This document shows positions 27,953 through 57,659 of a stretch of DNA of 64,000 nucleotides, piece by piece; the stretch's first letter is position 1; each line of letters opens with the position of its first letter. The translations under genes were made by a program, and so were the position numbers. The stretch comes from a bacterium (GTDB taxonomy: Bacteria; UBA8248; JACPRG01; G963555815), in assembly GCA_965261595.1 (NCBI GenBank), contig CBDHDG010000006.1, positions 1,216,001-1,280,000 of the forward strand. Direction: 5' to 3'. The notes beneath the pieces are model-generated. The model searched no databases. It saw only the letters and a program-made list of their open reading frames with translations, and had not been told where the DNA came from.

Positions 27953-28853
27953 GGGGGTGATGTACCGTTTTGTGTGTAGAAAGTGTTTTCGGGCAAAAAG
28001 AGAGGGTGTACTCTTCCTGGGAGCAAGAAACCCATTTTGGAGGAGCACACCCAATGCAACCGAAGTTGCTTTTTGGGGATAAGGATTTGGGCCGGGCATT
28101 TCAAGAGCTGAATGAGACGTGGGAGGTGGAGTTGCCCATCGAGGCGAGCCTGAAAGGGTTTTTGGAGGGCCTGATGGCCGAGGAGCGGGCCGTCTACCTG
28201 GCGGCCGGGTTCCGGGAGCGCACGCCCAAGCGGCGCGACTGGGCCAACGGCCACTACGTCCGGGACCTGGGGACCGAGGGGGGGCTGATCCGCGCCCTGC
28301 GTGTGCCCCGGGTTCGCGGCGGCGGCTTTCAGAGCCGGGCGTTCGCGCTACCGGCGCCGCCGGGCGGTGGTGGACCGCACGCTTCGCGATTGCTTCCTGG
28401 CCGGGGTGTCCACCCGCCGGGTGGGGGCGTGCGTGAAGGGGTTGTTGGGTGAAGCGGTGAGCGCCTCCACCGTCTCGCGGGTGTGCACGGCGCTCAGCCG
28501 AGACGTTGCGGCGTTCCACGACCGCCCTTTGAGCGACCACTACCGTTGTGTGTTCCTGGATGGCCTGGCTTTCAAGGTGCGCGGGGCGTCGAGAAGCCGG
28601 CGCAAGGTCCTTTTGTGCGCGATGGGCGTCACACTCGCGGGCCGGCGGGAGATCATCGACTTCCGTCTGGCCGACTCGGAGAGCGAGGCCACATGGACGA
28701 AGTTCCTCGACGACCTCTACCACCGGGGGCTTTTGGGTCACTCCCTTCGCCTCATCATCACCGACGGCAACCCGGGGCTGTTGGCGGCGCTGGAGGTGGT
28801 CTACCCCTTCACGCCCCATCAGCGGTGCTGGTTTCACAAGATGGAAAACGTGG
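27953..28853 (+). pseudogene. IS256-family element, frameshifted and 3'-truncated
   Basis: NGHYVRDL..LRVPRVR in one frame, GVSTRR..FLDG..TDG..QRCWFHKMENV in the next; homology stops near 28853. Confidence 0.88.
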
Positions 28854-29067
28854 TTAAAATATCTCACCTCGCCAATGGTGCGACCGAGAACGCTGTGCTG
28901 AGATAAAGTGCTGTAAACATTGAATTTATTTTTCATTATCCCGTCTCTTGCCCCTTGCATTCCCGCCACGCTTGTGCTCAAATACGCACCGATTTGATGC
29001 AGCGTGTGTTCTATTTGATTACGGAATTGCATACCGAATCACCATAGAACAAAGGCAAGGAGCGACC

Positions 29068-29852
29068 ATGCCCAGAAGGAGCGAGCTCAGGATCACCAAA
29101 CGCACCGTGGATGCACTCACCGTCGATGCCACGGATGGCGTCTTCTGGGACCGGGACCTGGCGGGCTTCGGGGTGCGGGTCCATGCCACGGGTCGCAAGG
29201 TCTACGTAGTGCAGTCCCGGGGGCCGGCCGGACCGAAGCGAGTGACCCTCGGACGGCATGGGGACATGTCGACCGAGGAGGCGAGGAAGCGGGCGGCCGT
29301 GGTCATCGACCGCATCAAGCGGGGGGAGGACCCCGTGCCCGCGCCGCCCGAGCCGGAGCTCACGTTGACTGTCCGAACGGTTCCTGCGCACCCATGTCAA
29401 AGCCGAGCACCGTTGCAACGTACCGGAGCGTGCTCGACAAGCACATTCTTCCCACCCTGGGCGCGATGTCAATCAACGAGGTAGGACGAAGAGAGATTTC
29501 CGCGCTGCATCACCGGCTTCGTGACACGCCTGCAATGGCCAACCGGACGGTCAAGGTTCTGTCGAGAATGTTCTCGTTGGCGGAAGCCTGGGAAAGACTG
29601 CCGCCCGGCCGGAATCCGTGCCGGTCGGTGCGCCGCTACAAGGAGAGGTCGTGCGAGCGGTTTCTGACGCCGGAGGAGTTCCGGCGGCTGGGCCGTGTGT
29701 TGAGGGACGCGGAAACGGACGGCTCGGTGTGGCCGCCGGTGATTGCGGCGCTCCGGCTGCTGCTGCTGACCGGATGCCGGAAGAGCGAGATCCTGACGTT
29801 GCGCTGGGAATTTATGGATCGCTTTTTTCCACGCGATGCGGCGGTTGCATAA
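29068..29852 (+). pseudogene. Tyrosine integrase with arm DNA-binding domain, frameshifted, C-terminus missing
   Basis: WDRDLAGFGVRV..G.KVYVVQ; second frame ERFLT..LLLLTGCRKSEILTLRW, then ends without HxxR/Y. Confidence 0.88.
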
Positions 29853-30566
29853 CATATTGATATTATATGTAGATATCTGTTTCTCCATGCTTCCTGACTG
29901 ACGGCTTCCTGCAAAGTTCAACACTATTTCAACACGGGGATCGGGTAGTACCGAGGCGCGCTCCTGACGCCGTGTGCCGCCGCCGATCCGCCGTTTCCGC
30001 CGATTCGAGACCATCGGCCGCGCGAATCGTAGCCGTTCGGACTCCGGCCCGGAGCCGCCCCGAACCCGGAACCCCCCCGCCGGCGAGGGCCGCAATGATG
30101 GCGTTGACCAACGCCCTCGCGTTGCCGGTGCCCGTCCGTGGCCGCGAACCAATGCCGCGGGCGATCCCGTTCCAGGCGGTTCATCTCCATTCCGGAACGA
30201 TACCGTTCTCCCGGAGGAACTCTTCCGCCAACTCCGCAATCTGCTCTTCCCGGGAGGCGCAGAAGGCATGAACCGCACCCTCGTCGCGGACGTCACGCCG
30301 TTCGTGATGGCAATCGCGATGTGTGCGGCGGCGTTGGCAGCTTGGCGCGGAATCGCTCAGACATCAAGCAGATTCCGGGCGAGGTTCGCGGCATCTGCGG
30401 ACGCATCAAGAAACACAACAGTTTCGAGTGCCATCAACCAGGAACGGGCTGCAACCGGGTCTCCTACCCTTGCTTCCGCGACGATTCAGTCTTGAAATTC
30501 GCACCAATTTTGTGCAGTATAGAGCAGACTCATCGACGGCAATGGCCGATAGTTGGAGCAAATCTA

Positions 30567-31853
30567 ATGCTGTACTTGTCACGCGTACAACTGAGCAACG
30601 TCCGATGCTTTGACGCGCTAGATCTTACACTTAGCCGTCCGGATACTGAACCACCGGGGTGGAACCTCATTTTAGGTGATAACGCAACTGGTAAATCGAC
30701 ACTTCTTCGAAGTATCGCAATAGGTCTGTGTGATGAGGCAAGCGCAGCCGGTTTGCTGAAGGAATCGGACGAAGGGTACATCCGGCGAAGGGAAACCAAG
30801 GCGGCTATTGTGATTTCGTTGCACGATCCAAACGCGCCAGGCAAGAAATTTCGTATCAAGACGGAAGTGACCCGTGAAGAGAAAAGACACGGTATCTTTG
30901 CCGATAAAGTACGACAGAGGACCTATCCTTCAGGTAAGGAGTTTCCTTGGGAGACGTTGTTTGTCTCTGCGTACGGCGCTGGGAGAGGGGTGACGGGCAC
31001 GGGCGATATTTCCTCCTATTCCGCAATCGACGCTGTTTACAACATGTTCAATTACAGCGAAGGGCTTCAGAATCCTGAACTGACCATTCGGCGGCTAATG
31101 GAACATACTGCCGGCAACCAGTTGACGCAGCGTCAGATCTTCCAAGTCTTGCAGACCGCTATAGGAACTAAGGAGATCAAGCTTACCAGCAGTGGCATTC
31201 GAGTGTCCGGTCCATGGGGTGAGGGAATGCCCTTAAGGGATCTTGCTGACGGGTACAGATCCGCTTTTTTGTGGTTGACCGATCTAATTGGGTGGGCTCT
31301 AGCCTTTGATCCTAGTCGAAAAAGCACTGAGGGGATACGCGGAATCGTGTTGGTCGATGAAATCGAGCAACACCTGCACGCCCGATGGCAGCGGACAGCA
31401 ATAGACGATCTCCGAAAGCTCTTTCCTAATGTTCAGTTCATTGCTAGCACGCACTCGCCTCTTGTGGCATCTAGCGTTGGTCCACATTTGGCGAGAAATG
31501 TAACTGACAACCTATTTGTACTTGAACCTCATGAAACTGAGGGCGTGAAGGTTTCGGAACACGAATTCATGCGAGGTTGGAAGATGGACCAAGTGCTGGC
31601 TTCCCGTGCTTTCAAATACCAGGTCCAAGAGGCTTCTTCTACCGAGGAAATGTTGCGGAAGGTTTCTCAGATTGGTGACGTGGATGAACGTACTGAGGAG
31701 GAGAAGAAGCTGTTTGAAGAAATCAAAAATAAACTGAAGCATGCCTTTCTCACCGGAACTACGCCTATCGAACGCATCGCTGAAATTGAGGCGGACAAAG
31801 AGTTGATGGAACGGCTCGCTAAACTCAAAGAGCGGAACTCCGGGGAGCAATGA
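30567..31853 (+). CDS. ABC/AAA ATPase, Septu PtuA-like
   Basis: Walker A GDNATGKS, signature LADGYRS, Walker B/D-loop VLVDEIEQHLHARWQR, H-loop FIASTHSP; ATG 30567 after GGAG. Confidence 0.88.
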   Translation: MLYLSRVQLSNVRCFDALDLTLSRPDTEPPGWNLILGDNATGKSTLLRSIAIGLCDEASAAGLLKESDEGYIRRRETKAAIVISLHDPNAPGKKFRIKTEVTREEKRHGIFADKVRQRTYPSGKEFPWETLFVSAYGAGRGVTGTGDISSYSAIDAVYNMFNYSEGLQNPELTIRRLMEHTAGNQLTQRQIFQVLQTAIGTKEIKLTSSGIRVSGPWGEGMPLRDLADGYRSAFLWLTDLIGWALAFDPSRKSTEGIRGIVLVDEIEQHLHARWQRTAIDDLRKLFPNVQFIASTHSPLVASSVGPHLARNVTDNLFVLEPHETEGVKVSEHEFMRGWKMDQVLASRAFKYQVQEASSTEEMLRKVSQIGDVDERTEEEKKLFEEIKNKLKHAFLTGTTPIERIAEIEADKELMERLAKLKERNSGEQ

Positions 31854-32581
31854 AGTTGATCCGAATAAAGCGATCTCGTTGTCCGACTGTACTGAAAAAT
31901 GCCACCGCAGATAGCGACAGATATCGCCATCCCAAAGTGGTAAGTAAACTGTGGAAGATGCAGTCTGGGAAGTGCTGCTATTGCGAACAAAAGATTCCTG
32001 AAAAGGGTCATGCGAAGGCAGTCGAGCATTTTGCGCCGAAGTCAGTATTTGAAGATCGGCGCAACCACTGGCCCAACTTGCTGTTAGCGTGCGCACAATG
32101 CAACGGCAAGAAAGCTGATCAATTTCCAGAGATGCTTACCGATAACCCAGATGAGGTTAAGCTGATTTATGTCAATAGATCCAATAAGAAGGCAACCAGT
32201 AAGAAGGTTTCGGCATTGATCGATCCAACAAAAGAGACGAATCCGGAAGCTCATCTGACCTACCACCTCGACCTACATGACGGTTGCCTTGTTGGTCAAA
32301 TATACCCGCGTAACGGCAGTCCACAGGGAAAAGCAACGATTTCAGTGATTGGATTGGATCAGGCCCATATTCATAGGCTTCGCAGAGACCATTTTAGGAC
32401 CCTTGTGATCAGCTACATTAATCTACAGGAAGCGAGAGATGAGAACAGACGCGAGGTGCTACGGCAAAAGTTTGAAAAACTTATTTCCCGGGACGGAGTA
32501 TTTGCAGGCTTGGCGAGAGAATTCTCCCGAGAATATAAAATCGATGATGAATACGGTCTCGACGTCCTCGACATTACCTAA
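31850..32581 (+). CDS. HNH endonuclease, Septu PtuB-like
   Basis: KCCYCE, VEHFAPKS, WPNLLLACAQCNGKK, LIDPT; ATGA overlap with the ATPase. Confidence 0.88.
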   Translation: MKLIRIKRSRCPTVLKNATADSDRYRHPKVVSKLWKMQSGKCCYCEQKIPEKGHAKAVEHFAPKSVFEDRRNHWPNLLLACAQCNGKKADQFPEMLTDNPDEVKLIYVNRSNKKATSKKVSALIDPTKETNPEAHLTYHLDLHDGCLVGQIYPRNGSPQGKATISVIGLDQAHIHRLRRDHFRTLVISYINLQEARDENRREVLRQKFEKLISRDGVFAGLAREFSREYKIDDEYGLDVLDIT

Positions 32582-32595
32582 GAGAGAGGGAATGG

Positions 32596-32985
32596 ATGAG
32601 TGAAACGGATGCGTCGCTCCACTATGGTCTTGAATTGATTCTGGACCTCCATGAATGTAATGCGTCGCGATTCACTCGACGTGACATTACGACATTCTGC
32701 AGAGAGCTTTGCGATTTGATCGACATGGAGCGCTGTGATCTACATTTTTGGGATGACGTTGGCGTGCCTGAGAATGAGCGGCAGACACATCCCAAAACGA
32801 AAGGGACGAGTGCGGTTCAATTCATTCTTACGAGTACAATCGTAATTCACACTCTTGACTTGATGAAGGCCGCCTACATCAATATTTTCTCCTGCAAAGA
32901 ATTCGATACTGATGAAGCTACTCAGTTTACCGCCAAATGGTTTGGCTCGACCGACTGGACAGCAAACGTGGTAGTTCGTCGCTAA
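32596..32985 (+). CDS. S-adenosylmethionine decarboxylase-like pyruvoyl proenzyme
   Basis: YGLELILDLHEC, GTSAVQFILTSTIVIHT (cf. G.S..x..ESH..IHT), YINIFSCKEFD; 129 aa. Confidence 0.8.
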   Translation: MSETDASLHYGLELILDLHECNASRFTRRDITTFCRELCDLIDMERCDLHFWDDVGVPENERQTHPKTKGTSAVQFILTSTIVIHTLDLMKAAYINIFSCKEFDTDEATQFTAKWFGSTDWTANVVVRR

Positions 32986-32998
32986 AGGAAAGGATCAT

Positions 32999-34375
32999 AT
33001 GGCGGACGTTTTTGAGCGACAGTGTAGTGTCTCTGTTTCAGACAATGTAGTCGGCCTGGTTGCTCATCTAGAACGAGCATGTGCGGAGTCCTTATTGGAC
33101 GCGGTTCCCGTTCGCTTCGTTGTTAGTTCCAGTTCGCTTCGCTCTTATCAATGTGAACTGGCCGTGGTCAAGCGTAAAGTGCTGCGTGGGCGAATCCCTA
33201 TTGCGTCGATTTTTGAATTTAGGCAACGAGTAACGCAGCGCCCAGAGAAATTCAATGTCGTGCTCATAGTGCCAACGGGAATCGGTACTGAAATTGGCGG
33301 CCATGCGGGGGACGCCGGGCCGGTGGCGCGGATGCTTGGCGAGGTGTCCGACACGCTTGTTTTGCACCCCAACGTCGTGAACGCTTCTGATCTTAATGAG
33401 ATGCCTTCGAATGCACTCTATGTCGAGGGCAGCGTCCTAACACGGCTACTGATGGGTACCGTTGGCTTGGAACGGGTACGGTCAAATCGCGTCTTAGTGG
33501 TCGTTGACGATCATAACGATGAGATCTTCGTCAATGCGGCTGTAAATGCTGTTAACGGTGCGAGATCAGCATACGGGTTGTCGTGTCCAGAAGTCGTATG
33601 CCTCGATCCTCCAGTACGATTGAAAACCGGATATTCTCCATCTGGAAGAGCAGCAGGTCAGGTCGAACGGATTGAAGGCCTATGCGATCTCCTTGATAAA
33701 CGGAACGGATTATATGATGCCGTGGCAATCTCATCCGTCATCGATGTGCCAGACCTATATCACCAAGGATATTTTGATGCGGCTGGTACGATGGTGAACC
33801 CCTGGGGGGGTGTAGAGGCAATGCTGACTCATACACTGTCCAGCATGTATAACGTTCCGACCGCGCACTCTCCGATGTTTGAATCTAGAGAAATTGCGAA
33901 CATGGATCCTGGGATCGTTGATCCCCGCATGGCAGCCGAAGCCGTTTCGGCGACATTCCTCCAATGTACGCTAAAGGGTCTCCAGTGGAGTCCACGAATC
34001 GTTACAGACGAGAATGCGATGAACAACTCCGGCATCTTTACAGCAGCCGATGTGTCCTGTCTTGTGCTTCCGGACGGCTGTTTGGGGCTTCCGACAATTG
34101 CGGCTCTTGAACAGAACATTCCGGTTATTGCCGTGTCGGAGAACTCGAATTTAATGCGAAATGATCTTTCGGCGCTTCCATGGAGAGCGGGACAATTTCA
34201 CCGGGTTTGCAACTATTGGGAGGCTGCTGGTGTTATTGCAGCCATGAGGGCTGGAATCGATCCAGCGGCCGTGCGACGTCCACTTTCAGCGACCCACGTT
34301 TCGCGTTTCAAGGCTAAATCTAGTGTCTCTTGCCTAGAGACTGATCTTGCGGCAAAGGTGGATACGCCGAAATAG
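32999..34375 (+). CDS. DUF3326-like protein with N-terminal extension
   Basis: VLIVPTGIGTEIGGHAGDA, HPNVVNA, ALYVEG, NPWGGVEAMLTH, AHSP, DPRMAAE, LKGL, IPVIAVSEN, NYWEAAG. Confidence 0.8.
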   Translation: MADVFERQCSVSVSDNVVGLVAHLERACAESLLDAVPVRFVVSSSSLRSYQCELAVVKRKVLRGRIPIASIFEFRQRVTQRPEKFNVVLIVPTGIGTEIGGHAGDAGPVARMLGEVSDTLVLHPNVVNASDLNEMPSNALYVEGSVLTRLLMGTVGLERVRSNRVLVVVDDHNDEIFVNAAVNAVNGARSAYGLSCPEVVCLDPPVRLKTGYSPSGRAAGQVERIEGLCDLLDKRNGLYDAVAISSVIDVPDLYHQGYFDAAGTMVNPWGGVEAMLTHTLSSMYNVPTAHSPMFESREIANMDPGIVDPRMAAEAVSATFLQCTLKGLQWSPRIVTDENAMNNSGIFTAADVSCLVLPDGCLGLPTIAALEQNIPVIAVSENSNLMRNDLSALPWRAGQFHRVCNYWEAAGVIAAMRAGIDPAAVRRPLSATHVSRFKAKSSVSCLETDLAAKVDTPK

Positions 34376-34549
34376 AAAGCAAGTAGTTCTTCTGTCCTCG
34401 TAACCTTCTTGGCTTATGAATAAGTTGATGGTTTCGGTGAGCCTCCGTCCATAGTGTCGATACCCGAGATGAAGGGTTCGGTATAGAACCTGCCTCCCTA
34501 AATTCGAACCTCCAGATTGGCTACGCAATTGCGGAAGGGGATGATTGTA

Positions 34550-34600
34550 TGACCTGCCCCTCCGTTTAGTACCAAACGTAAAGTTAGAGTCGTAGGCAAA
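34550..34600. mobile_element. IS3-family-like terminal repeat remnant
   Basis: TGACCTGCCCCTCCGTTTAGTACCA resembles IS3-family ends; next to the recQ truncation. Confidence 0.45.
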
Positions 34601-34739
34601 GCTTCAGTTTGGCAAGTTCAGTGGACCGTAGCTCTTTTCGTCTTGACGCGATCTACGACTAGGCCCGCTACGCCGCAGAACCGAGAGTGCCTCATCACGC
34701 CTCCCCGATAACTCACCAAGGTCTGCCATGTCATTTTCT

Positions 34740-36383
34740 CTTCGGTGCGCGGGCGACGGCGCGCCATGTCGATCAGCGAGCGGTCGGGAAACACGATATA
34801 GGCCGGCACGCCGCGCTCCTTGGCGAGTTGCAGCCGCAACGCCTTGAGCACGGCCAGCAGCGCCGCCTGATCGTGGCTGAGCGGATGTTCGGGTTCTTTC
34901 CCGCGCGTCTCGCGCGGCGCCGCGGCCGGCCGTGCAACCACCGTGTCCTCGCGGTAGAGGAACTCGTCCTCGCCCCTCAGCAGGGCGTGGCCCTTGCCGG
35001 TGAGCGCGAGCCCGCCATAGCTCGCGATGTCGAGCCGCAGAAACCCGGTCGCCACCATCTGGCGGATCAGCGAGCGCCATTCGTTCTTGCCGCGCGCCGC
35101 GCCGACCCCGAAGGTCGGCAGCCGGTGATGACCGGCGCGCACGATCTTCTCGGCCTCGGTCCCGCGCAGGATATCGATCACATGCGCCGCGCCGAACCGT
35201 TCGCCCGAGTGGTAGACCGCCGACAGGATCTTCTGCGCATCCTCGGTCCCGTCGACGCGCTCGGCCGGGTCGAGGCAGGCATCGCAATTGCCGCAAGGCT
35301 CGATCCGCTCGCCGAAGTAATCGAGCAGAGCCACCCGGCGGCAGGACGGCGCCTCGCAATAGCCGAGCAAGGCGTCGAGCCGCTTGTGCTCGCGCCGCTT
35401 GCGCTCAGCGCCGGCATCCTCATCCTCGATGAACTGCCGCCGCATGCGGATATCGGCCAGCCCATAGAGCATGTGGGCCTCGGCGGGCGCGCCGTCGCGT
35501 CCGGCCCGGCCGATCTCCTGGTAATAGGCCTCGATGCTGCCCGGCAGATCGGTGTGGAAGACGTAGCGCACGTCCGCCTTGTCGATCCCCATGCCGAAAG
35601 CGATGGTGGCGACGATGACGACGCCCGGATCGGTCATGAAGACGTTCTGGTGCGCCTCCCGGTCCTCCTTCTCCATGCCCGCGTGATAGGGAAACGCCCG
35701 CACTCCGTCTTCTTGCGCGACAGGCAGTAGACGATACCGCTCTCGCCTTCATGGCGCGCGATGAAGCTCAGCAACTGCCGCTTCCACTCGCGTTTCATCT
35801 CCACCGACAGCTTGATGTTCGGACGGTCGAAGCCGAGCACGAACTGCTCGACCTCGTCGGCGGTCGCCGTCAGCGCGGCGACCGGAACCCCGGGAAAGAG
35901 CTCCCTGATCCGGCACAGATCCTCGTATTCCGGACGGAACGCCGGACCCCACTGCGAGATGCAGTGAGCTTCGTCAATGGCGAAGAGCGTTACCGGCAGC
36001 CGCGCCAGCGACGCCAGCATGCGCCCGGTCATCAGGCGCTCCGGGGCCATGTAGAGAAGCCGCGTCTCGCCCGCGGCGGCGCGCTTCCAGGCGGTGACGT
36101 TGCCCTCGCGGCCGTTCGCCGAGTTGATGCTGTCCGCTGCGACGCCCGCGAGCCTGAGCGCCGCGACCTGGTCCTGCATCAGCGACACCAACGGCGACAC
36201 CACCACCGTCAGGCCGTCCATGACCAGCGCCGGGATCTGGAAGCACAGCGACTTCCCCGATCCCGTCGGCATCACGGCGAGCGCGTTGCGGCCCGCCAGC
36301 AGCGCCTCGATCGCCGCCTCCTGGCCCGGCCGGAACCCCTCGAACCCGAACACCTCGCCCAGCACCCGGCGCGCGGCCGCCAT
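34740..36383 (-). pseudogene. recQ: RecQ DNA helicase, degraded
   Basis: MPTGSGKSLCFQIP, IDEAHCISQWG, ATIAFGMGIDK, YYQEIGRAGRDG, HRDC start; internal deletions (TATADEVEQF), frameshift near 35700, truncated HRDC. Confidence 0.9.
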
Positions 36384-36434
36384 CGGCGTCCATCCTGAGC
36401 CCGCGGCGGCAACTCGCCCCGCCATCAGCAACAA

Positions 36435-36557
36435 CCCGAGCGGACCAACTCGACCATCTGGCGCCGGTACTCCGGCACGTACTGCGGATGAGTTTTCGAC
36501 ATCAGGACACCTCCTACGCACAGTCTGAAGGTGTCCACTGAAACGGGTCAACTCCAC
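36435..36557 (-). mobile_element. IS3-family left end with start of OrfA
   Basis: TGGAGTTGACCCGTTTCAGTGGACA then RBS AGGAGG and MSKTHPQYVPEYRRQMVELVRSG. Confidence 0.8.
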
Positions 36558-37030: not shown

Positions 37031-39646
37031 CTAATTTTTCCGGCGACTCCGAATTCCTTTAACCCAGTCCTCAAGCGCTTCGATGTCCTCTTTAAGCTCG
37101 CTCGGTTCGGGAAGTGATGCATTTTCTGCAGGAGATTGATCGTGACCCGTAAGCCACTTCGAGCATTTTGTCATCCCATCTTCGAGCGCTTTTAAATCAT
37201 CAGTGCAGATGTCAGCTAGTTGGTCTGCTTGCTTGGTCTGGATGGTGGGCCGGTACCGTTCAACGGTTCCGTCCAAGAGCACTTCCTCGAATCCCCGTTC
37301 CCACGCTTCTCGAAGGAGACCGTATATGTTCGATACGTCACGCTCGTACTTCTCCTGGTTTCCGTTCCGATATGTCTTGTCCGCGTCCTGCAATAGATCC
37401 TTCAAGTGACCGATGCGAGCCTTGACCTTCATCGCAGCCCACGGCAGCCGCTGGGAGGACAAGCCCGCGCTCGTCGGGTCTCTGCGCAAGTACTGGTGTT
37501 CGAGGTTGACGCCAAGGGCTTCAGCCTTCTCCACCAGCGCTAGAAGGAAAACGATGTCGTGCGTGAAGACAATTACCTGCCGAGACTGCGACTCGACGAC
37601 TAGACGCTTCGCTACATTCCCACGCCAATTGTGATCGAGCGACGAGACCGGGTCATCAAAGAGGATGGCCGACTGATCGGCGGCAGTACTGAGTTCCGCG
37701 AAGAACGACGCGATTGAAAGACACCGAGCTTCGCCCTCGCTCACGACCTTGGACACATCGGCCCCCGGCGCTCGCCTTAGCTGTAGCTTATGGTAGAGCG
37801 CACCACGAGACCCGCCAGCGTCCACCATTTGAACCTCAACGTGATGGAATTTGAGCGTGTCCAGCTCTTCCGCAAAGCTCCTGGTCAGTTGCTCGGTGAC
37901 TGCGCGTCTCGTAACGTCGCTGCTCTTGAGCGTAACCGCATTTGTCCGTGTTTCGTCAATGCACACTTGGTAGGCAGCAATCTTCTTCTTGCGTTCGATT
38001 GCTTCCAGGACGTCACGCAAGTGGTCTGCTAGCAACTGTCGCGCCTCAAGTTCGTTCAACTCGTTTCTTAGCTCGCCGATCGCCTCTGGTTGGTTCGCCT
38101 CGCGAAGTTGTTTCGCCCGATCTCTCAGATTCTCGATATAACTCGTCAATGTGTGCACGTTGAGCGACTGAGCGGGCAGATTCTTGGGGCACGGTAAGCC
38201 CTTGGTTAGCGCTTCGTTCAATTGCTTTCTTCGGGTCTCCGCTGTGTCCAGACACGCACGAACCGCTTCAGCAAGATCAGAGTTGTCCAGTTGAAGCTCG
38301 TCGAGTGCTTCAGTGGCTGGCTCGTCCAGAACGAGCACGCCGTTGATCTGCGAATGCCTCTCGTGGTATCCGGCCGCCGCGCTATCGTAGTCGCCCTGAA
38401 CGGCTGAAGTGAGGAACTCCTGGAACTTCCGCAATCGACGCATGCCCTCCTCGGTAAGTTCTTGCTGGCATAGGACGCAGCGTGAATCCTCTTCGGTGAA
38501 CGGGAAGGCGTGGTCCGGATACGCATCGGTTTTTGAGAACCGCTCTGCGGCATCCCAGAGTTTTCGCCATGCGTCTGACCCAGTGTTTGGCAACGGTTGC
38601 TCTTTGAAGCTCGCCCTTTGTAATTCCTCCACAACACGCCGAGTCTCGTTCGTTCGGTCGTGCGCCGCGAATAGCCCCTCGATCGCGGTATCAGACAGCA
38701 CTTCGCCAGCAGTCTTGACTCTCGTAAATAATACATTCGCGCGCTCGGCACGGAGCACGATTGCCCGAGCAGTCTTTTCGGGATCGTCTGACTGTAGATC
38801 GCGAATCCTCTTCCGCACTTCCTCGCTGCGCGCCTTCTCAGCTTCGGTCAAGGAAGCGATCTTCTCGACTGACGCCGGATCGGTGAGTGAGGTCAGATCT
38901 GTGATCAAATCGTGGACGGTTGTTCTCTCAGCAACATCGGGGAATTGGAGCTTCTCTGACTCCAGCGCATTTCGTTCCTTTTCCAAGGTTTTCCTGACAG
39001 CTTCGCATGCGTCAGAAAGCTTGTCGAACAAGTCGAGACCCATGGGACGAAACGCGACATCGGTCTGTTGTGAGACATACACGCTCGCGCAATGGTGATC
39101 GAATACGCTAACTCTCGAAAGGAACGCGTTAGGGGGCTGATCATCATCCCATAAATGATCACGCGACTCTTCATCAGCCGTGAACTTTATGGTTGCAGAT
39201 GGACGCCCCGGAATAGCTCCAGACACAACGTTCCCTAGAATCTCTTCGGCACCGCGCGCTCGGCACGCACGTTTCAAGATGCGCGTGTATCCAGACTTGC
39301 CAGCAGCATTTGCGCCATAAACGACTGTCAACTGAGGCCCGAATTCGACCGTCTGATTTTGGGCAAGGGCGTTGACTCCGGCGTGATGTGTGAGCGATTG
39401 CAGTGACACGGGCTTCGTCCGGGCATCAGGCTGAGGGAGGTGGCTTGCGTCGAGTGGCACGGGTTTCGCCCTATCACCCAGTCCGTGTCGGGATTTGCAG
39501 AGATTCGACAGCTCCCTGATGTCTGTCTCGTCGAGTTCACCTCTCGCGATCAATCGTCGTAATGCATCACGTTGCCAGGCCGGACGGCCTAATGACCACT
39601 CAAGGATCTCGTTAAGGACATTAACTCTCACCACGTATTTCTCCAA
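37031..39646 (-). CDS. Rad50/SMC-like ATPase with zinc hook and HEPN-like tail (RloC-like architecture)
   Basis: GANAAGKS, coiled coil with CVLC, VSEGE signature, LFDDPVSSLD, FTHD; C-terminal LREAWE...WLTGHD; true start may be a few codons in. Confidence 0.8.
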   Translation of the reverse strand: MEKYVVRVNVLNEILEWSLGRPAWQRDALRRLIARGELDETDIRELSNLCKSRHGLGDRAKPVPLDASHLPQPDARTKPVSLQSLTHHAGVNALAQNQTVEFGPQLTVVYGANAAGKSGYTRILKRACRARGAEEILGNVVSGAIPGRPSATIKFTADEESRDHLWDDDQPPNAFLSRVSVFDHHCASVYVSQQTDVAFRPMGLDLFDKLSDACEAVRKTLEKERNALESEKLQFPDVAERTTVHDLITDLTSLTDPASVEKIASLTEAEKARSEEVRKRIRDLQSDDPEKTARAIVLRAERANVLFTRVKTAGEVLSDTAIEGLFAAHDRTNETRRVVEELQRASFKEQPLPNTGSDAWRKLWDAAERFSKTDAYPDHAFPFTEEDSRCVLCQQELTEEGMRRLRKFQEFLTSAVQGDYDSAAAGYHERHSQINGVLVLDEPATEALDELQLDNSDLAEAVRACLDTAETRRKQLNEALTKGLPCPKNLPAQSLNVHTLTSYIENLRDRAKQLREANQPEAIGELRNELNELEARQLLADHLRDVLEAIERKKKIAAYQVCIDETRTNAVTLKSSDVTRRAVTEQLTRSFAEELDTLKFHHVEVQMVDAGGSRGALYHKLQLRRAPGADVSKVVSEGEARCLSIASFFAELSTAADQSAILFDDPVSSLDHNWRGNVAKRLVVESQSRQVIVFTHDIVFLLALVEKAEALGVNLEHQYLRRDPTSAGLSSQRLPWAAMKVKARIGHLKDLLQDADKTYRNGNQEKYERDVSNIYGLLREAWERGFEEVLLDGTVERYRPTIQTKQADQLADICTDDLKALEDGMTKCSKWLTGHDQSPAENASLPEPSELKEDIEALEDWVKGIRSRRKN

Positions 39647-48399: not shown

Positions 48400-48887
48400 C
48401 AGATTCTTCTGACTGCTATGGAAGAAGTCCGGATCGCCGCAACATAACCTTTTGCAATCATAGGGATTTCAGGAAGGCGAACCGAGCGCAATCGGGTCCC
48501 GGCAATCTTTACAACGCAAGCGGTCTGGTACTGCATTCCGTGCGATGGTGAAGATATCGCCACCCCCGAGCGAGCGGTGCCGCCTGGTATGCCTTGATGG
48601 TGTCCGGTTGTGTGAACAGTTCTTTGGACATAGTCGCGTCTCCCTGTTGGTGGAGGCACGATTACGTGCACAGGTGCCGAAAAATTATGTTGCATGAATT
48701 CTACTCAACCTCCTGCTGGACAGAAGGAATTTTCATCGATGCAACATATGGGCTGGATGGCAACGGGATTGTTCTGCGACCGCAAGCAGAAGCACTGATT
48801 GACGTTCTCTGTCAGGACGTCCTGCCGGCCCGGCGCCGGCCGGGCGTCCGTCGTCCCGATTCCAGCCCCGATGGGAGGCGTCCACAG

Positions 48888-49697
48888 GTGTCCTACAAGA
48901 ACCCCGACAAGGCCCGCGAGCATGACCGGGAACGCTACCGCCGGCTCACCAAAGAGCGCCTCGCCCAAGGCCTGTGCCCCAAATGCGGAAGAGAGCCCCT
49001 TCCTCCCGACTGTAGTCTGTGCCGCTCCTGCGGCGAGAAGCGGCGCAAGGCCGAGCGCGCCCGGTACGCCAAGGGCAAGGCCGCCGGCAGGCTCTACGGA
49101 GGCCGGGATCCCAAGGACTGCCGCAGGCTCGGGCGGGAGAGAAGCAGGAAGCGCCTCCGGGCATGCCGGGCCGCCGGCCTGTGCACGCGATGCGGGAACC
49201 GTCCTCCCGTCCCGGGCGGGGCGACCTGCCGGGCTTGCCGTGACGCCCGGCAAGCGGCCGAACAAGAGCAGTATGCCGCCCGCAGGGCCGAGGGACGGTG
49301 CGGCAGGTGCGGAAGACATGCCCTTGACCGCGCCTCGCGCTGCGGTCCCTGCGCGGCTCTCGAGGCCGGGCGCCATCCACGGAAGAACGCGGCCAGCCGA
49401 AGGCGCTACGCCCATAGGCGTGCGAGGTGGCGTTGCACGGACTGTGGCGAACCCTCTCAGGGAGCGGCGCGGTGCGTGCCGTGCGCGCACCGGTCCTGGG
49501 TGCGGTCGGGCTGGCATCGGGGCCTTCCGATCCTTCCGCCTCGCTACACCGTGATCGAGGTCGCCACGGGCGAGGACCACGGGATCTGGGACAGCTGGGA
49601 GGAGGTGGCCATGTGTCTGGCCTTCGCGCGGCTGTCCCACCAACAGGTGGAGATTATTTCGGATACGTCACCGATGGCGTCTTTTACGGGGCAGTGA
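48888..49697 (+). CDS. Arg-rich tandem CxxC..CxxC (putative zinc-finger) protein, copy 1
   Basis: GTG start after GGAGG; eight CxxC in four repeats. Confidence 0.75.
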   Translation: MSYKNPDKAREHDRERYRRLTKERLAQGLCPKCGREPLPPDCSLCRSCGEKRRKAERARYAKGKAAGRLYGGRDPKDCRRLGRERSRKRLRACRAAGLCTRCGNRPPVPGGATCRACRDARQAAEQEQYAARRAEGRCGRCGRHALDRASRCGPCAALEAGRHPRKNAASRRRYAHRRARWRCTDCGEPSQGAARCVPCAHRSWVRSGWHRGLPILPPRYTVIEVATGEDHGIWDSWEEVAMCLAFARLSHQQVEIISDTSPMASFTGQ

Positions 49698-56317: not shown

Positions 56318-56849
56318 CAGATTCTTCTGACTGCTATGGAAGAAGTCCGGATCGCCGCAACATAACCTTTTGCAATCATAGGGATTTCAGGAAAGCCATC
56401 AGCCCCTTGTTTTCCTTCCATGGCCGGATCGGGCCCCGTCCCGACCGCAATCGGGTCCGGGCAATCTTTGCAACGCAAGCGGTCTGGTACTGCATTCCGT
56501 GCGATGCTGAAGATATCGCCACCACCCCCGAGCGAGCGTTTCCGCCTGGTATGCCTTGATGGTGTCCGGTTGTGTGAACAGTTCTTTGGACATAGTCGCG
56601 TCTCCCTGTTGGTGGAGGCACGATTACGTGCACAGGCGCCGAAAAATTATGTTGCATGAATTCTACTCAACCTCCTGCTGGACAGAAGGAATTGTCATCG
56701 ATGCAACATATGGGCTGGATGGCAACGGGATTGTTCTGCGACCGCAAGCAGAAGCACTGATTGACGTTCTCTGTCAGGACGTCCTGCCGGCCCGGCGCCG
56801 GCCGGGCGTCCGTCGTCCCGATTCCAGCCCCGATGGGAGGCGTCCACAG

Positions 56850-57659
56850 GTGTCCTACAAGAACCCCGACAAGGCCCGCGAGCATGACCGGGAACGCTAC
56901 CGCCGGCTCACCAAAGAGCGCCTCGCCCAAGGCCTGTGCCCCAAATGCGGAAGAGAGCCCCTTCCTCCCGACTGTAGTCTGTGCCGCTCCTGCGGCGAGA
57001 AGCGGCGCAAGGCCGAGCGCGCCCGGTACGCCAAGGGCAAGGCCGCCGGCAGGCTCTACGGAGGCCGGGATCCCAAGGACTGCCGCAGGCTCGGGCGGGA
57101 GAGAAGCAGGAAGCGCCTCCGGGCATGCCGGGCCGCCGGCCTGTGCACGCGATGCGGGAACCGTCCTCCCGTCCCGGGCGGGGCGACCTGCCGGGCTTGC
57201 CGTGACGCCCGGCAAGCGGCCGAACAAGAGCAGTATGCCGCCCGCAGGGCCGAGGGACGGTGCGGCAGGTGCGGAAGACATATCCTTGACCACGCCTCGC
57301 GCTGCGGTCCCTGCGCGGCTCTCGAGGCCGGGCGCCATCCACGGAAGAACGCGGCCAGCCGAAGGCGCTACGCCCATAGGCGTGCGAGGTGGCGTTGCAC
57401 GGACTGTGGCGAACCCTCTCAGGGAGCGGCGCGGTGCGTGCCGTGCGCGCACCGGTCCTGGGTGCGGTCGGGCTGGCATCGGGGCCTTCCGATCCTTCCG
57501 CCTCGCTACACCGTGATCGAGGTCGCCACGGGCGAGGACCACGGGATCTGGGACAGCTGGGAGGAGGTGGCCATGTGTCTGGCCTTCGCGCGGCTGTCCC
57601 ACCAACAGGTGGAGATTATTTCGGATACGTCACCGATGGCGTCTTTTACGGGGCAGTGA
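56850..57659 (+). CDS. Arg-rich tandem CxxC..CxxC protein, copy 2
   Basis: Same as 48888-49697 except HILDHAS versus HALDRAS. Confidence 0.75.
   Translation: MSYKNPDKAREHDRERYRRLTKERLAQGLCPKCGREPLPPDCSLCRSCGEKRRKAERARYAKGKAAGRLYGGRDPKDCRRLGRERSRKRLRACRAAGLCTRCGNRPPVPGGATCRACRDARQAAEQEQYAARRAEGRCGRCGRHILDHASRCGPCAALEAGRHPRKNAASRRRYAHRRARWRCTDCGEPSQGAARCVPCAHRSWVRSGWHRGLPILPPRYTVIEVATGEDHGIWDSWEEVAMCLAFARLSHQQVEIISDTSPMASFTGQ

What the first reader, a model, noticed from the sequence alone, without database searches (positions are those of the whole stretch)
30567..34375. Candidate new defence system: Septu-like ATPase + HNH coupled to a SAM-decarboxylase-like enzyme and a DUF3326-like protein
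Seen: four co-directional intact genes with an ATGA overlap, then 14-nt and 13-nt gaps with RBSs. They share visibly lower GC than the host genes, sit just behind an integrase remnant, and are intact while their neighbours (IS256, integrase, recQ) are broken. Established: PtuA-like ATPase + PtuB-like HNH form the Septu effector, which also serves as the effector of retron Ec78-type systems, where RT/msDNA controls it. No reverse transcriptase is present here. Inference: the two enzyme-like genes take the regulator role, for example by making or monitoring a SAM- or amine-derived metabolite or modification that gates the nuclease. One testable idea is a guard against phage SAM-depleting enzymes such as the T3 SAM lyase. 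I do not know of a described system with this composition.
Basis: partly seen in the sequence, partly recalled or inferred. Interest (0 to 1): 0.88.

Follow-up and report, generated by a model that had tools for sequence, protein, structure and literature searches.

The report
Septu nuclease pair with polyamine-type enzymes
A Septu-type ATPase and nuclease pair sits in one tight operon with two enzymes that look like a polyamine-making module, and the same combination recurs in at least nine bacterial phyla, which points to an undescribed, possibly metabolite-controlled, variant of a known anti-phage system.

Summary
Four intact, co-directional genes lie at 30567-34375: PtuA-like ATPase, PtuB-like HNH nuclease, a pyruvoyl decarboxylase with the AdoMetDC fold, and a DUF3326 protein. 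Junctions are a 4-nt overlap, then 14-nt and 13-nt gaps. GC is 0.46-0.54 against 0.6-0.7 in the flanks. Neighbours are IS256 and integrase remnants, a split recQ and a PDC-S06 candidate defence gene.

The gene set is not unique. Of 80 loci fetched with DUF3326, 22 carry PtuA and PtuB beside it, in nine named phyla, in six places of the DUF3326 tree, and in two gene orders. DUF3326 sits next to a decarboxylase in 76 of 80 loci: the AdoMetDC-like type in 40, a PLP enzyme like carboxynorspermidine decarboxylase in 36. Two fused forms exist. A 2026 preprint ties a DUF3326 protein to triamine synthesis. So the enzyme pair is most likely a polyamine-type biosynthetic module, not a SAM sensor.

The 22 linked PtuAs separate (98/98) from six stand-alone plasmid PtuAs, but they do not co-diverge with DUF3326.

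Best reading: a Septu variant coupled to a small-molecule module. Defence and gating are inferred. My literature searches found no description.

The parts
30567..31853 (+). PtuA-like ABC/AAA_15-21 ATPase (428 aa)
   Evidence: PADLOC PtuA1 PDLC00304 at 3.8e-55. Pfam AAA_15, AAA_21 and AAA_23. PDB PtuA chains at 1.3e-19 (retron I-A) and 1.1e-16 (stand-alone Septu 8ee4). Walker A (G37, N39, K43), Walker B (D264, E265) and H296 are invariant in 21 sequences.
31850..32581 (+). PtuB-like HNH nuclease (243 aa), overlapping ptuA by ATGA
   Evidence: PADLOC PtuB1 at 1e-32. Pfam HNH at 1.9e-5. PDB PtuB chains at 3e-4. C42, C45, H60, N76, C81, C84 and N85 are invariant in 22 sequences.
32596..32985 (+). 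Pyruvoyl-type decarboxylase with the AdoMetDC (class 1b) fold, substrate unknown (129 aa)
   Evidence: Pfam PF02675 at 5.9e-14. AF2 model pLDDT 93.9. Foldseek 1vr7 at E 2e-8, TM 0.77-0.82, rmsd 1.8. T79-S80 and C100 are invariant and H85 nearly invariant in 39 sequences, and they align to S63, H68 and C83 of T. maritima AdoMetDC. NCBIfam SpeD equivalog cut-off not met.
32999..34375 (+). DUF3326 protein (458 aa): an N-terminal alpha/beta domain of about 86 aa plus PF11805. Putative polyamine-type synthase.
   Evidence: Pfam PF11805 at 1.1e-91. 6104 relatives with E<=1e-3, and the top 120 are 66-93% identical. Beside a decarboxylase in 76 of 80 loci. Fused to PF00278 in P0125 and P0127. AF2 pLDDT 78.7, with no full-length PDB match.
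30500..34560 (.). Low-GC island that carries the four genes
   Evidence: GC 0.46-0.54 against 0.58-0.72 in the flanks. No tRNA and no flanking direct repeats found.
27970..29852 (+). IS256/Mutator transposase fragment and integrase N-terminal fragments (mobile-element remnants upstream)
   Evidence: Pfam Transposase_mut, Arm-DNA-bind_3, Phage_int_SAM_3 and Phage_int_M on separate short ORFs.
34618..36557 (-). recQ split into two overlapping ORFs (downstream flank, host-like GC)
   Evidence: DEAD on 35634-36557. Helicase_C, RecQ_Zn_bind, RQC and HRDC on 34618-35703.
37031..39646 (-). PDC-S06 candidate single-gene defence ATPase (871 aa). Context only, not part of the operon.
   Evidence: PADLOC PDLC04891 at 5.6e-236, full length. 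Pfam AAA_13 and AAA_21.

Best explanation
This is a four-gene cassette acquired by horizontal transfer. A dedicated subfamily of the Septu effector (PtuA ABC-type ATPase plus PtuB HNH nuclease) is joined to a two-enzyme small-molecule module. That module is a pyruvoyl decarboxylase with the AdoMetDC fold plus a DUF3326 enzyme.

Shown here:
- The four genes are intact and tightly spaced.
- All catalytic motifs are conserved.
- The combination recurs in many phyla.
- DUF3326 is almost always paired with, and sometimes fused to, a decarboxylase of one of two unrelated folds.

Inferred:
- The enzyme pair makes a polyamine-type amine, a triamine of the spermidine, norspermidine or homospermidine kind. 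DUF3326 would do the joining step that carboxy(nor)spermidine dehydrogenase or homospermidine synthase does elsewhere, and the decarboxylase would do the other step.
- The cassette acts in phage defence.
- The amine, or its pool size, sets the activity of PtuAB. This would parallel ATP lowering the nicking activity of stand-alone PtuAB, and msDNA and RT holding PtuAB in retron type I-A. A change in the pool during infection would then release cleavage of nucleic acid (tRNA or DNA, as in known PtuAB) and abort the infection.

The direction of control (inhibitor or activator) is not known.
For: Anatomy.

Family assignments.

Recurrence:
- PtuA and PtuB lie beside DUF3326 in 22 of 80 loci, and in 17 of the 60 loci with at least 2.5 kb on both sides.
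- These loci come from nine named phyla.
- All genes in them are co-directional. Spacing is tight except in L009 and L015, where IS elements sit between the modules, and in L032 and L037, where 400-441 nt separate DUF3326 from a downstream PtuA.
- Linkage appears in six separate places of the DUF3326 tree.
- PtuAB lies upstream in 19 loci and downstream in 3 (L005, L032, L037).
- It occurs with either decarboxylase fold: 19 AdoMetDC-like and 3 PLP (L007, L033, L034).

Dedicated subfamily:
- The 22 linked PtuAs (21 loci plus the window) sit on one side of a 98/98 branch from six stand-alone plasmid PtuAs.
- The 25 best plasmid hits listed are only 25-30% identical to the window's PtuA.
- The plasmid collection holds no DUF3326.
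- 13 of 14 linked PtuAs scanned hit PADLOC models PDLC00292 or PDLC00304 best.

Independent data set: 14 of the 120 listed PtuA relatives share an exact longest-contig length with one of the 120 listed DUF3326 relatives (matched by hand).

The enzyme module makes a polyamine-type product:
- A decarboxylase is adjacent in 76 of 80 loci.
- The six PLP-type decarboxylases scanned (of 36) all match nspC best, at 1e-82 to 1e-95.
- DUF3326 is fused to PF00278 in P0125 and P0127.
- GSP_synth, DUF350 and DUF1190 neighbours occur in 13 loci.
- L004 has putrescine-type catabolic and Pot-like transport neighbours.
- PavB (DUF3326) with PavA (decarboxylase domain) is required for N-(5-aminopentyl)pentane-1,5-diamine (bioRxiv 10.64898/2026.06.12.731819, passages).

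Defence context:
- In the window: PDC-S06 and mobile-element remnants.
- 10 of 22 linked loci have restriction-modification, toxin-antitoxin, Schlafen-like or mobile-element genes within 4 kb.

Precedents:
- Retron co-option of PtuAB with a distinct PtuA clade, and ATP lowering PtuAB nicking (PMC12819146, abstract and passages).
- Polyamine pools matter in phage infection (PMC9992862, abstract; PMC11898732, passages).

A small molecule rather than a co-evolving interface: pairwise identities of PtuA and DUF3326 are uncorrelated (rho 0.04; Mantel 647 of 2000), and the two trees disagree.
Against: - No experiment bears on this. Defence, the product and the gating are all inferred.
- The enzyme pair is much more conserved than PtuAB. 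Median pairwise identities are 59% (DUF3326) and 60% (decarboxylase), against 33% (PtuA) and 26% (PtuB).
- The enzyme pair occurs without PtuAB in 58 of 80 loci, often in housekeeping-like contexts. So it may be ordinary metabolism that PtuAB merely accompanies.
- 12 of 22 linked loci show no defence or mobile-element neighbour within 4 kb.
- The lack of co-divergence could also mean that the modules are functionally independent, or that PtuA divergence is saturated.
- PADLOC has no model for either enzyme.
- DUF3326 has no solved structural relative, so its chemistry is unknown.
- The outgroup for the PtuA tree is only 6 of 52 plasmid hits.
- A PtuA-centred survey could not be run.
- ORFs in the loci were called mechanically (longest ORF), not by a gene finder.
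Confidence: 0.45

Rival explanations
1. Two arms with no regulatory link. The enzyme pair raises or alters the cell's polyamine pool, which itself hampers phage genome replication. PtuAB is an ordinary Septu that works independently. The two are kept together because they are useful together and travel as one cassette.
For: High intracellular polyamines inhibit phage genome replication in P. aeruginosa (PMC9992862, abstract). The modules do not co-diverge, and the trees show shuffling. The enzyme module works in many loci without PtuAB.
Against: Pure synergy does not explain why a distinct PtuA subfamily (98/98 against stand-alone plasmid PtuAs) is the one found with the module. It also does not explain why the genes are translationally coupled or separated by only 13-14 nt.
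Confidence: 0.2
2. Addiction or stabilisation module. PtuAB acts as a selfish toxin-like pair that stabilises a mobile polyamine-biosynthesis cassette, or hitch-hikes on it, with no role for the enzymes in immunity.
For: The cassette is mobile: a low-GC island beside integrase and IS remnants in the window, ISL3 copies on both sides of the enzyme pair in L009, and two identical copies in one genome (L021 and L023). PtuAB without its retron restricts the host (PMC12819146, abstract).
Against: The reading needs an antidote. If the antidote is the enzymes' product, this merges with the best explanation. Linkage in six places of the DUF3326 tree and with two decarboxylase folds argues for a functional tie rather than hitch-hiking.
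Confidence: 0.1
3. Modification and restriction logic. The enzymes attach an amine-derived group to DNA or tRNA that marks self, and PtuAB attacks the unmarked nucleic acid.
For: It has the general architecture of modification-dependent systems: a conserved 'modifier' beside a faster-evolving nuclease. Known PtuAB targets include tRNA-Tyr (PMC13096335, abstract in the listing).
Against: The same enzyme pair sits with glutathionylspermidine-synthase-like ligases, DUF350/DUF1190 and PspA genes. It is also fused to a carboxynorspermidine-decarboxylase-like domain. That fits free-polyamine chemistry. No nucleic-acid-binding or transferase domain was found in either enzyme.
Confidence: 0.07
4. SAM guard. 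The AdoMetDC-like enzyme uses SAM, and the system fires when a phage SAM lyase depletes it.
For: AdoMetDC fold with the catalytic Ser, His and Cys retained.
Against: The protein is below the SpeD equivalog cut-off. No aminopropyltransferase lies in the operon. A PLP nspC-like decarboxylase takes its place in 3 of the 22 linked loci and 33 others. AdoMetDC homologues that use ornithine or arginine are widespread (PMC10407285).
Confidence: 0.05

Closest known systems
Septu (stand-alone PtuA and PtuB)
   Same: An ABC-type ATPase followed by an HNH nuclease, overlapping genes, intact catalytic motifs, hits to PADLOC PtuA and PtuB models and to solved PtuA and PtuB chains.
   Different: Two further enzyme genes lie in the same operon. 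The PtuAs found with them separate from six stand-alone plasmid PtuAs on a 98/98 branch. The ATPase is shorter than the solved stand-alone PtuA (428 against 465 aa).
Retron type I-A (Ec78 / Eco7): PtuAB co-opted by RT, ncRNA and msDNA
   Same: A PtuAB effector joined to an extra module, and a PtuA clade of its own for the co-opted form (PMC12819146, passages).
   Different: No RT and no retron RNA here. The NCBIfam retron PtuA and PtuB equivalog cut-offs are not met (114.8 against 500 and 70.9 against 150). The partner is a pair of metabolic enzymes.
Aspartate-semialdehyde route to (nor)spermidine: carboxy(nor)spermidine dehydrogenase plus decarboxylase (CASDH/CANSDH with CASDC/NspC)
   Same: A two-gene module in which one partner is an nspC-like PLP decarboxylase (36 of 80 loci; the six scanned match nspC at 1e-82 to 1e-95). 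Fused forms exist.
   Different: DUF3326 stands where the dehydrogenase would be and has no detectable similarity to a solved enzyme. In the window the decarboxylase is of the unrelated pyruvoyl AdoMetDC fold. The nspC hits are below the equivalog cut-off of 409 bits.
Neofunctionalised SpeD homologues (pyruvoyl ornithine or arginine decarboxylases) clustered with homospermidine synthases
   Same: A small AdoMetDC-fold protein without a neighbouring SpeE, next to a polyamine-joining enzyme (PMC10407285, passages).
   Different: The partner is DUF3326, not HSS, SpeY or CASDH. The substrate here is untested. The residue before the processing serine is Thr, not Glu.
PavA and PavB of the pavettamine cluster
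   Same: A DUF3326 protein acting with a decarboxylase domain to give a triamine (bioRxiv 10.64898/2026.06.12.731819, passages).
   Different: That cluster belongs to secondary metabolism in a plant endophyte and has no nuclease. I did not measure sequence relatedness to P0004.

Membership tests
Septu (PtuA/PtuB) | ABC/AAA_15-21 ATPase recognised by PtuA models, with intact Walker A, Walker B and H-loop | tested here: met
   PADLOC PDLC00304 at 3.8e-55. PDB PtuA chains at 1e-16 to 1e-19. Motifs invariant in 21 sequences.
Septu (PtuA/PtuB) | Adjacent HNH nuclease recognised by PtuB models, with catalytic His and Asn and zinc cysteines | tested here: met
   PADLOC PDLC00337 at 1e-32. Pfam HNH. 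C42, C45, H60, N76, C81, C84 and N85 invariant in 22 sequences.
Septu (PtuA/PtuB) | Two-gene, stand-alone system | tested here: not met
   Two more genes lie in the same operon, 14 and 13 nt apart. The set of four recurs in 22 of 80 loci.
Septu (PtuA/PtuB) | Protects against phage | not testable with these tools
   Needs cloning and a phage challenge.
Retron type I-A (Ec78-like) | Reverse transcriptase and msr/msd RNA next to PtuAB | tested here: not met
   No RVT_1-like hit in the window at E<=1. No Rfam family at gathering score. Flanking ORFs have other assignments.
Retron type I-A (Ec78-like) | NCBIfam equivalog scores for retron PtuA (NF041760) and PtuB (NF041761) | tested here: not met
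   114.8 against a cut-off of 500, and 70.9 against 150.
AdoMetDC / SpeD class 1b | Fold and Pfam domain PF02675 | tested here: met
   52.8 bits against 25. Foldseek 1vr7, 1tlu and 2iii at E 2e-8 to 2e-7, TM 0.73-0.84.
AdoMetDC / SpeD class 1b | Self-processing serine with catalytic His and Cys | tested here: met
   S80, H85 and C100 align to S63, H68 and C83 of 1vr7. The profile match is weak (E 0.069). S80 and C100 are invariant and H85 nearly invariant in 39 sequences. The residue before the serine is Thr, not Glu.
AdoMetDC / SpeD class 1b | Equivalog score for SAM decarboxylase (TIGR03330) and a partner aminopropyltransferase | tested here: not met
   22.3 against 75.65 bits. No SpeE-like gene in the operon.
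DUF3326 (PF11805) | Full-length match above the gathering score | tested here: met
   307.8 bits against 25, profile positions 2-336 of 337.
Carboxy(nor)spermidine pathway (CASDH plus CASDC) | nspC-type PLP decarboxylase in the module | tested here: inconclusive
   Absent from the window. Present in 36 of 80 related loci; the six scanned score 277-318 bits, below the cut-off of 409. Fused to DUF3326 in P0125 and P0127.
Carboxy(nor)spermidine pathway (CASDH plus CASDC) | Saccharopine-dehydrogenase-like carboxy(nor)spermidine dehydrogenase | tested here: not met
   No such gene among the recurrent neighbour clusters. DUF3326 takes its place.

The most novel reading that the evidence does not exclude
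A nuclease-based immune effector is switched by a polyamine-type metabolite that the system makes for itself. The decarboxylase and DUF3326 pair builds an amine whose pool reports the state of the cell, for example because replicating or packaging phage DNA draws it down or a phage enzyme diverts it. A PtuAB subfamily specialised for this context reads that pool. This would be the first metabolite-synthesising partner for Septu, a second independent co-option of PtuAB after retrons, and the first biochemical role for DUF3326 as a new polyamine synthase family. The MfnB-like gene upstream of PtuA in some loci, and the membrane protein that takes the place of PtuAB in a sister locus, would then be further interchangeable parts.
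Probability: 0.33. Interest if true: 0.87.

Novelty: new variant of a known kind. Interest (0 to 1): 0.8.

Why it matters
Septu is common, yet how it senses infection is only partly understood. The only co-opted form described in the papers I read is the retron type I-A. A conserved, multi-phylum coupling of a dedicated PtuAB subfamily to a small-molecule module offers a simple four-gene system to test whether a metabolite pool can gate a defence nuclease.

It also gives DUF3326 a testable role. The family had 6104 relatives with E<=1e-3 among 8000 candidates scored and has no solved structure. It would be the second enzyme of an alternative polyamine route, with two unrelated decarboxylases serving as interchangeable partners.

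Tried and rejected
- Complex prediction of PtuA with DUF3326 (alignments A3 and A1) gave no verdict (score 0.00, controls not run). I do not use it for or against binding.
- Sequence search of solved structures with DUF3326 found nothing meaningful. Foldseek gave only partial lumazine-synthase-like matches (TM to query 0.2).
- The protein atlas gave no usable lead for DUF3326 outside its own family, nor for the 400-aa protein c44.
- A single-sequence PDB search with the decarboxylase returned only chance immunoglobulin hits. The profile search and the fold search were needed.
- P0015 (611 aa) is not a decarboxylase-DUF3326 fusion.
- No tRNA gene or flanking direct repeat marks the island's ends.
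- The promoter scan found no sigma-70-like site in 30000-34800. None of its terminator-like sites lies in the intergenic gaps, so it neither shows nor excludes separate transcription.
- No remnant of the MfnB-like gene or of c44 lies upstream of ptuA in the window.
- The paper search 'Septu' plus 'S-adenosylmethionine decarboxylase' matched 'septum' and was useless.
- Chance adjacency is rejected: 22 of 80 loci, two gene orders, two decarboxylase folds and nine named phyla.

Full report
**The observation**

The window holds four co-directional ORFs on the + strand: 30567-31853, 31850-32581, 32596-32985 and 32999-34375. Genes 1 and 2 overlap by ATGA. The next two junctions are gaps of 14 and 13 nt with purine-rich stretches before each ATG. 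The ATG at 30567 is preceded by GGAG and coincides with the start of homologues. The longer ORF from 30138 runs into GC-rich sequence and is not needed.

GC is 0.46-0.54 across the four genes. It is 0.58-0.72 in the bins from 28000 to 36500 on either side.

Upstream lie a Mutator/IS256 transposase fragment and two integrase N-terminal fragments. Downstream is recQ, split into two overlapping ORFs. At 37031-39646 is an 871-aa ATPase that matches the PADLOC candidate system PDC-S06 over its full length (5.6e-236). I found no tRNA gene or flanking direct repeats.

**The four proteins**

- P0001 is a PtuA-type ATPase. PADLOC gives 3.8e-55 and Pfam gives AAA_15, AAA_21 and AAA_23. Solved PtuA chains match at 1e-16 to 1e-19.
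- P0002 is a PtuB-type HNH nuclease. PADLOC gives 1e-32, Pfam gives HNH, and solved PtuB chains match at 3e-4.
- Both score far below NCBIfam's retron Ec78 equivalog cut-offs. No RT or retron RNA was found.
- P0003 has the AdoMetDC fold. Pfam gives 52.8 bits. The AF2 model has pLDDT 93.9. The best Foldseek hits are the T. maritima and A. aeolicus enzymes, at TM 0.73-0.84. Its S80, H85 and C100 align to the processing serine, His and Cys of 1vr7. S80 and C100 are invariant and H85 nearly invariant in 39 sequences. It fails the SpeD equivalog cut-off (22.3 against 75.65).
- P0004 is a full-length DUF3326 with an extra N-terminal domain. Its model is fair (pLDDT 78.7, pTM 0.82). It has no full-length relative among solved structures, by sequence or by fold.

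**Recurrence**

DUF3326 relatives are very many: 6104 had E<=1e-3 among 8000 candidates scored, and the top 120 are 66-93% identical. One scan of genome contigs with an alignment of 25 of them found 377 encoding stretches, and the best 80 were kept.

- tblastn with the window's proteins finds PtuA and PtuB in 22 of the 80 loci. It finds the AdoMetDC-like protein in 41, one of them a fragment at a contig edge.
- I clustered all mechanical ORFs of at least 70 aa. A decarboxylase sits beside DUF3326 in 76 of 80 loci: the AdoMetDC-like one in 40 and a PLP-dependent one of about 400 aa in 36.
- Of the other four loci, two are cut at the contig edge (L029, L030) and two lack a decarboxylase (L065, L074).
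- Counting only loci with at least 2.5 kb on both sides, 17 of 60 have PtuAB.
- In the 22 linked loci all genes point the same way. Spacing is tight apart from two kinds of exception. In L009 and L015, IS transposases lie between PtuB and the decarboxylase. In L032 and L037, 400-441 nt separate DUF3326 from a downstream PtuA.
- PtuAB lies upstream in 19 loci and downstream of DUF3326 in 3 (L005, L032, L037).
- Three linked loci use the PLP decarboxylase (L007, L033, L034). In L034 PtuA is only partly detected.
- The linked loci come from nine named phyla. By contrast, 0 of 19 Pseudomonadota loci and 1 of 28 Chloroflexota loci are linked.

**What the enzyme pair is**

- The six PLP decarboxylases scanned (of 36) match nspC (carboxynorspermidine decarboxylase) far better than lysA or any other model. 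E-values are 1e-82 to 1e-95, though below the equivalog cut-off.
- Two longer proteins fuse DUF3326 to that decarboxylase domain (P0125 and P0127).
- In 13 loci, mostly alphaproteobacterial, the pair is preceded by a glutathionylspermidine-synthase-like ATP-grasp enzyme, usually with DUF350 and DUF1190. In Dehalococcoidia it sits near PspA, PspAA, DUF4178 and DUF350.
- In L004 the whole set lies among class-III aminotransferases, an aldehyde dehydrogenase, and a Pot-like ABC ATPase with its binding protein.
- A 2026 preprint reports that PavB, a DUF3326 protein, and PavA, which carries a decarboxylase domain, are both needed for N-(5-aminopentyl)pentane-1,5-diamine (passages read).
- AdoMetDC homologues that have become ornithine or arginine decarboxylases and cluster with polyamine-joining enzymes are documented (PMC10407285, passages).

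Taken together, the pair is best read as a two-step polyamine-type module in which two unrelated decarboxylases are interchangeable. The substrate and the product remain untested.

**How the two modules relate**

In a quick tree of 81 DUF3326 proteins, the window falls in a 99-supported clade of 12. All 12 carry PtuAB and the AdoMetDC-like gene, and they come from four named phyla besides the window, whose organism I do not know. The grouping does not follow taxonomy. Linkage to PtuAB appears in six separate places of that tree.

In a careful tree, the 22 linked PtuAs (21 loci plus the window) lie on one side of a 98/98 branch from six stand-alone plasmid PtuAs. Those six were taken from 52 plasmid records with a match, and the 25 listed are 25-30% identical to P0001. 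Each is a plain ATPase-plus-partner pair, and the plasmid collection holds no DUF3326.

Thirteen of 14 linked PtuAs scanned hit the same two PADLOC sub-models best.

Within the linked set, however, pairwise identity of PtuA does not track that of DUF3326 (Spearman 0.04; Mantel 647 of 2000), and the two trees disagree. For example, the PtuA of L002 groups with L032 and L037, whose DUF3326 is distant. PtuA and PtuB are also far more diverged (medians 33% and 26%) than the enzymes (59% and 60%).

I read this as a specialised PtuAB lineage that stays with this enzyme module but is reshuffled among its variants. That fits a shared small molecule better than a co-evolving protein interface. Saturation of PtuA divergence, or plain functional independence, would give the same numbers.

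An independent hint comes from the protein collection. This is a fingerprint, not proof.

**Mechanism**

The following comes from the literature I read. Stand-alone PtuAB nicks DNA less as ATP rises. Retron type I-A holds PtuAB through RT and msDNA, and its PtuA forms a clade of its own (PMC12819146, abstract and passages). Septu and retron PtuAB cleave tRNA-Tyr (abstracts in the listing). Polyamine pools change and matter during phage infection (PMC9992862, abstract; PMC11898732, passages).

By analogy, I think the most likely reading is a Septu variant whose nuclease is set by the amine that the operon makes. Infection would disturb that pool. I hold this at about 0.45, counting the defence role and the gating together. 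The rivals are independent arms, an addiction module, a modification mark and the SAM guard; they are set out in their own section.

**Novelty**

None of my searches found this composition. DUF3326 gave 3 papers, none on defence. PF11805 gave 0. PtuA* with polyamine* gave 0. Septu with spermidine gave 3 papers; in the two I opened the word occurs only in a buffer recipe, and the third I saw only as a listing. Anti-phage or antiphage with polyamine gave listings with no such system.

PADLOC 2.0 has no model for either enzyme. The library lacks most subscription journals, so an existing description cannot be excluded.

I class this as a new variant of a known kind: a second co-option of PtuAB.

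**Limits**

- ORFs in the loci are longest-ORF calls.
- Many loci come from MAGs.
- The DUF3326 tree is a quick one.
- The PtuA outgroup is small.
- The reverse survey, from PtuA outwards, could not be run.
- The complex prediction gave no verdict.

Noticed in passing
window 37031-39646 (-): An 871-aa AAA_13/AAA_21 ATPase matches the PADLOC candidate single-gene system PDC-S06 over its full length (5.6e-236). It lies in a second stretch of lowered GC (0.53-0.57). With the cassette it makes a small defence island.
   Followed up: partly
window 34618-36557 (-): recQ is split into two overlapping ORFs. The DEAD domain is on one. Helicase_C, Zn-binding, RQC and HRDC are on the other. This suggests a frameshift.
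   Followed up: partly
L004:4833-5609, L011:4676-5440, L012:4694-5428, L018:4543-5277; fragments at L001:203-430 and L033:4501-4650: A gene like 4-HFC-P synthase (MfnB, PF04476) lies directly upstream of PtuA, overlapping it or 2 nt away in three of the four intact cases (125 nt in L018). It occurs in 4 linked loci from three phyla, with fragments in 2 more. None was found in the 58 loci without PtuAB, and none in the window. It may be a fifth member of the system.
   Followed up: partly
L037:6203-7402 and relatives in L013, L021, L022, L023, L027, L075: A protein of about 400 aa with no Pfam, NCBIfam or PADLOC match sits directly upstream of the decarboxylase in 7 loci. By eye it has hydrophobic stretches at both ends, which suggests a membrane protein. 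In L022 it occupies the position that PtuAB holds in the sister locus L033. In L037 both are present.
   Followed up: partly
L021 and L023 (two places on one chromosome, OZ245330.1): The DUF3326 proteins of these two loci are identical, and both loci show the same three-gene order (unknown membrane-like protein, decarboxylase, DUF3326). The two places lie about 373 kb apart in one genome, which suggests a repeated or mobile unit.
   Followed up: no
L009:5910-11118: ISL3-family transposase genes flank the decarboxylase-DUF3326 pair on both sides, in a composite-transposon-like arrangement, and separate it from PtuAB. L015 has one ISL3 copy in the same place.
   Followed up: no
P0125, P0127 and P0126 (protein collection): There are fusion proteins of DUF3326 with the Orn/DAP/Arg decarboxylase domain (818 and 831 aa). 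One fusion (873 aa) joins DUF3326 to an NNMT/PNMT-type methyltransferase and a SET domain.
   Followed up: partly
13 mostly alphaproteobacterial loci (e.g. L063, L069) and Dehalococcoidia loci such as L062 and L073: Without PtuAB, the enzyme pair sits beside glutathionylspermidine-synthase-like, DUF350 and DUF1190 genes, or near PspA, PspAA, DUF4178 and DUF350. This links DUF3326 to envelope-stress and polyamine-conjugate gene sets.
   Followed up: partly
window 48594-49697 and 56556-57659 (+): Two 1104-nt ORFs, 7962 nt apart, are 99.5% identical. They probably belong to a repeated element. I did not annotate them.
   Followed up: no
P0004 residues 92-108: The stretch PTGIGTEIGGHAGDAGP is almost invariant among 25 DUF3326 proteins. 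It is glycine-rich and modelled with low confidence (pLDDT below 50 for residues 93-104). It may be a mobile cofactor- or substrate-binding loop.
   Followed up: no
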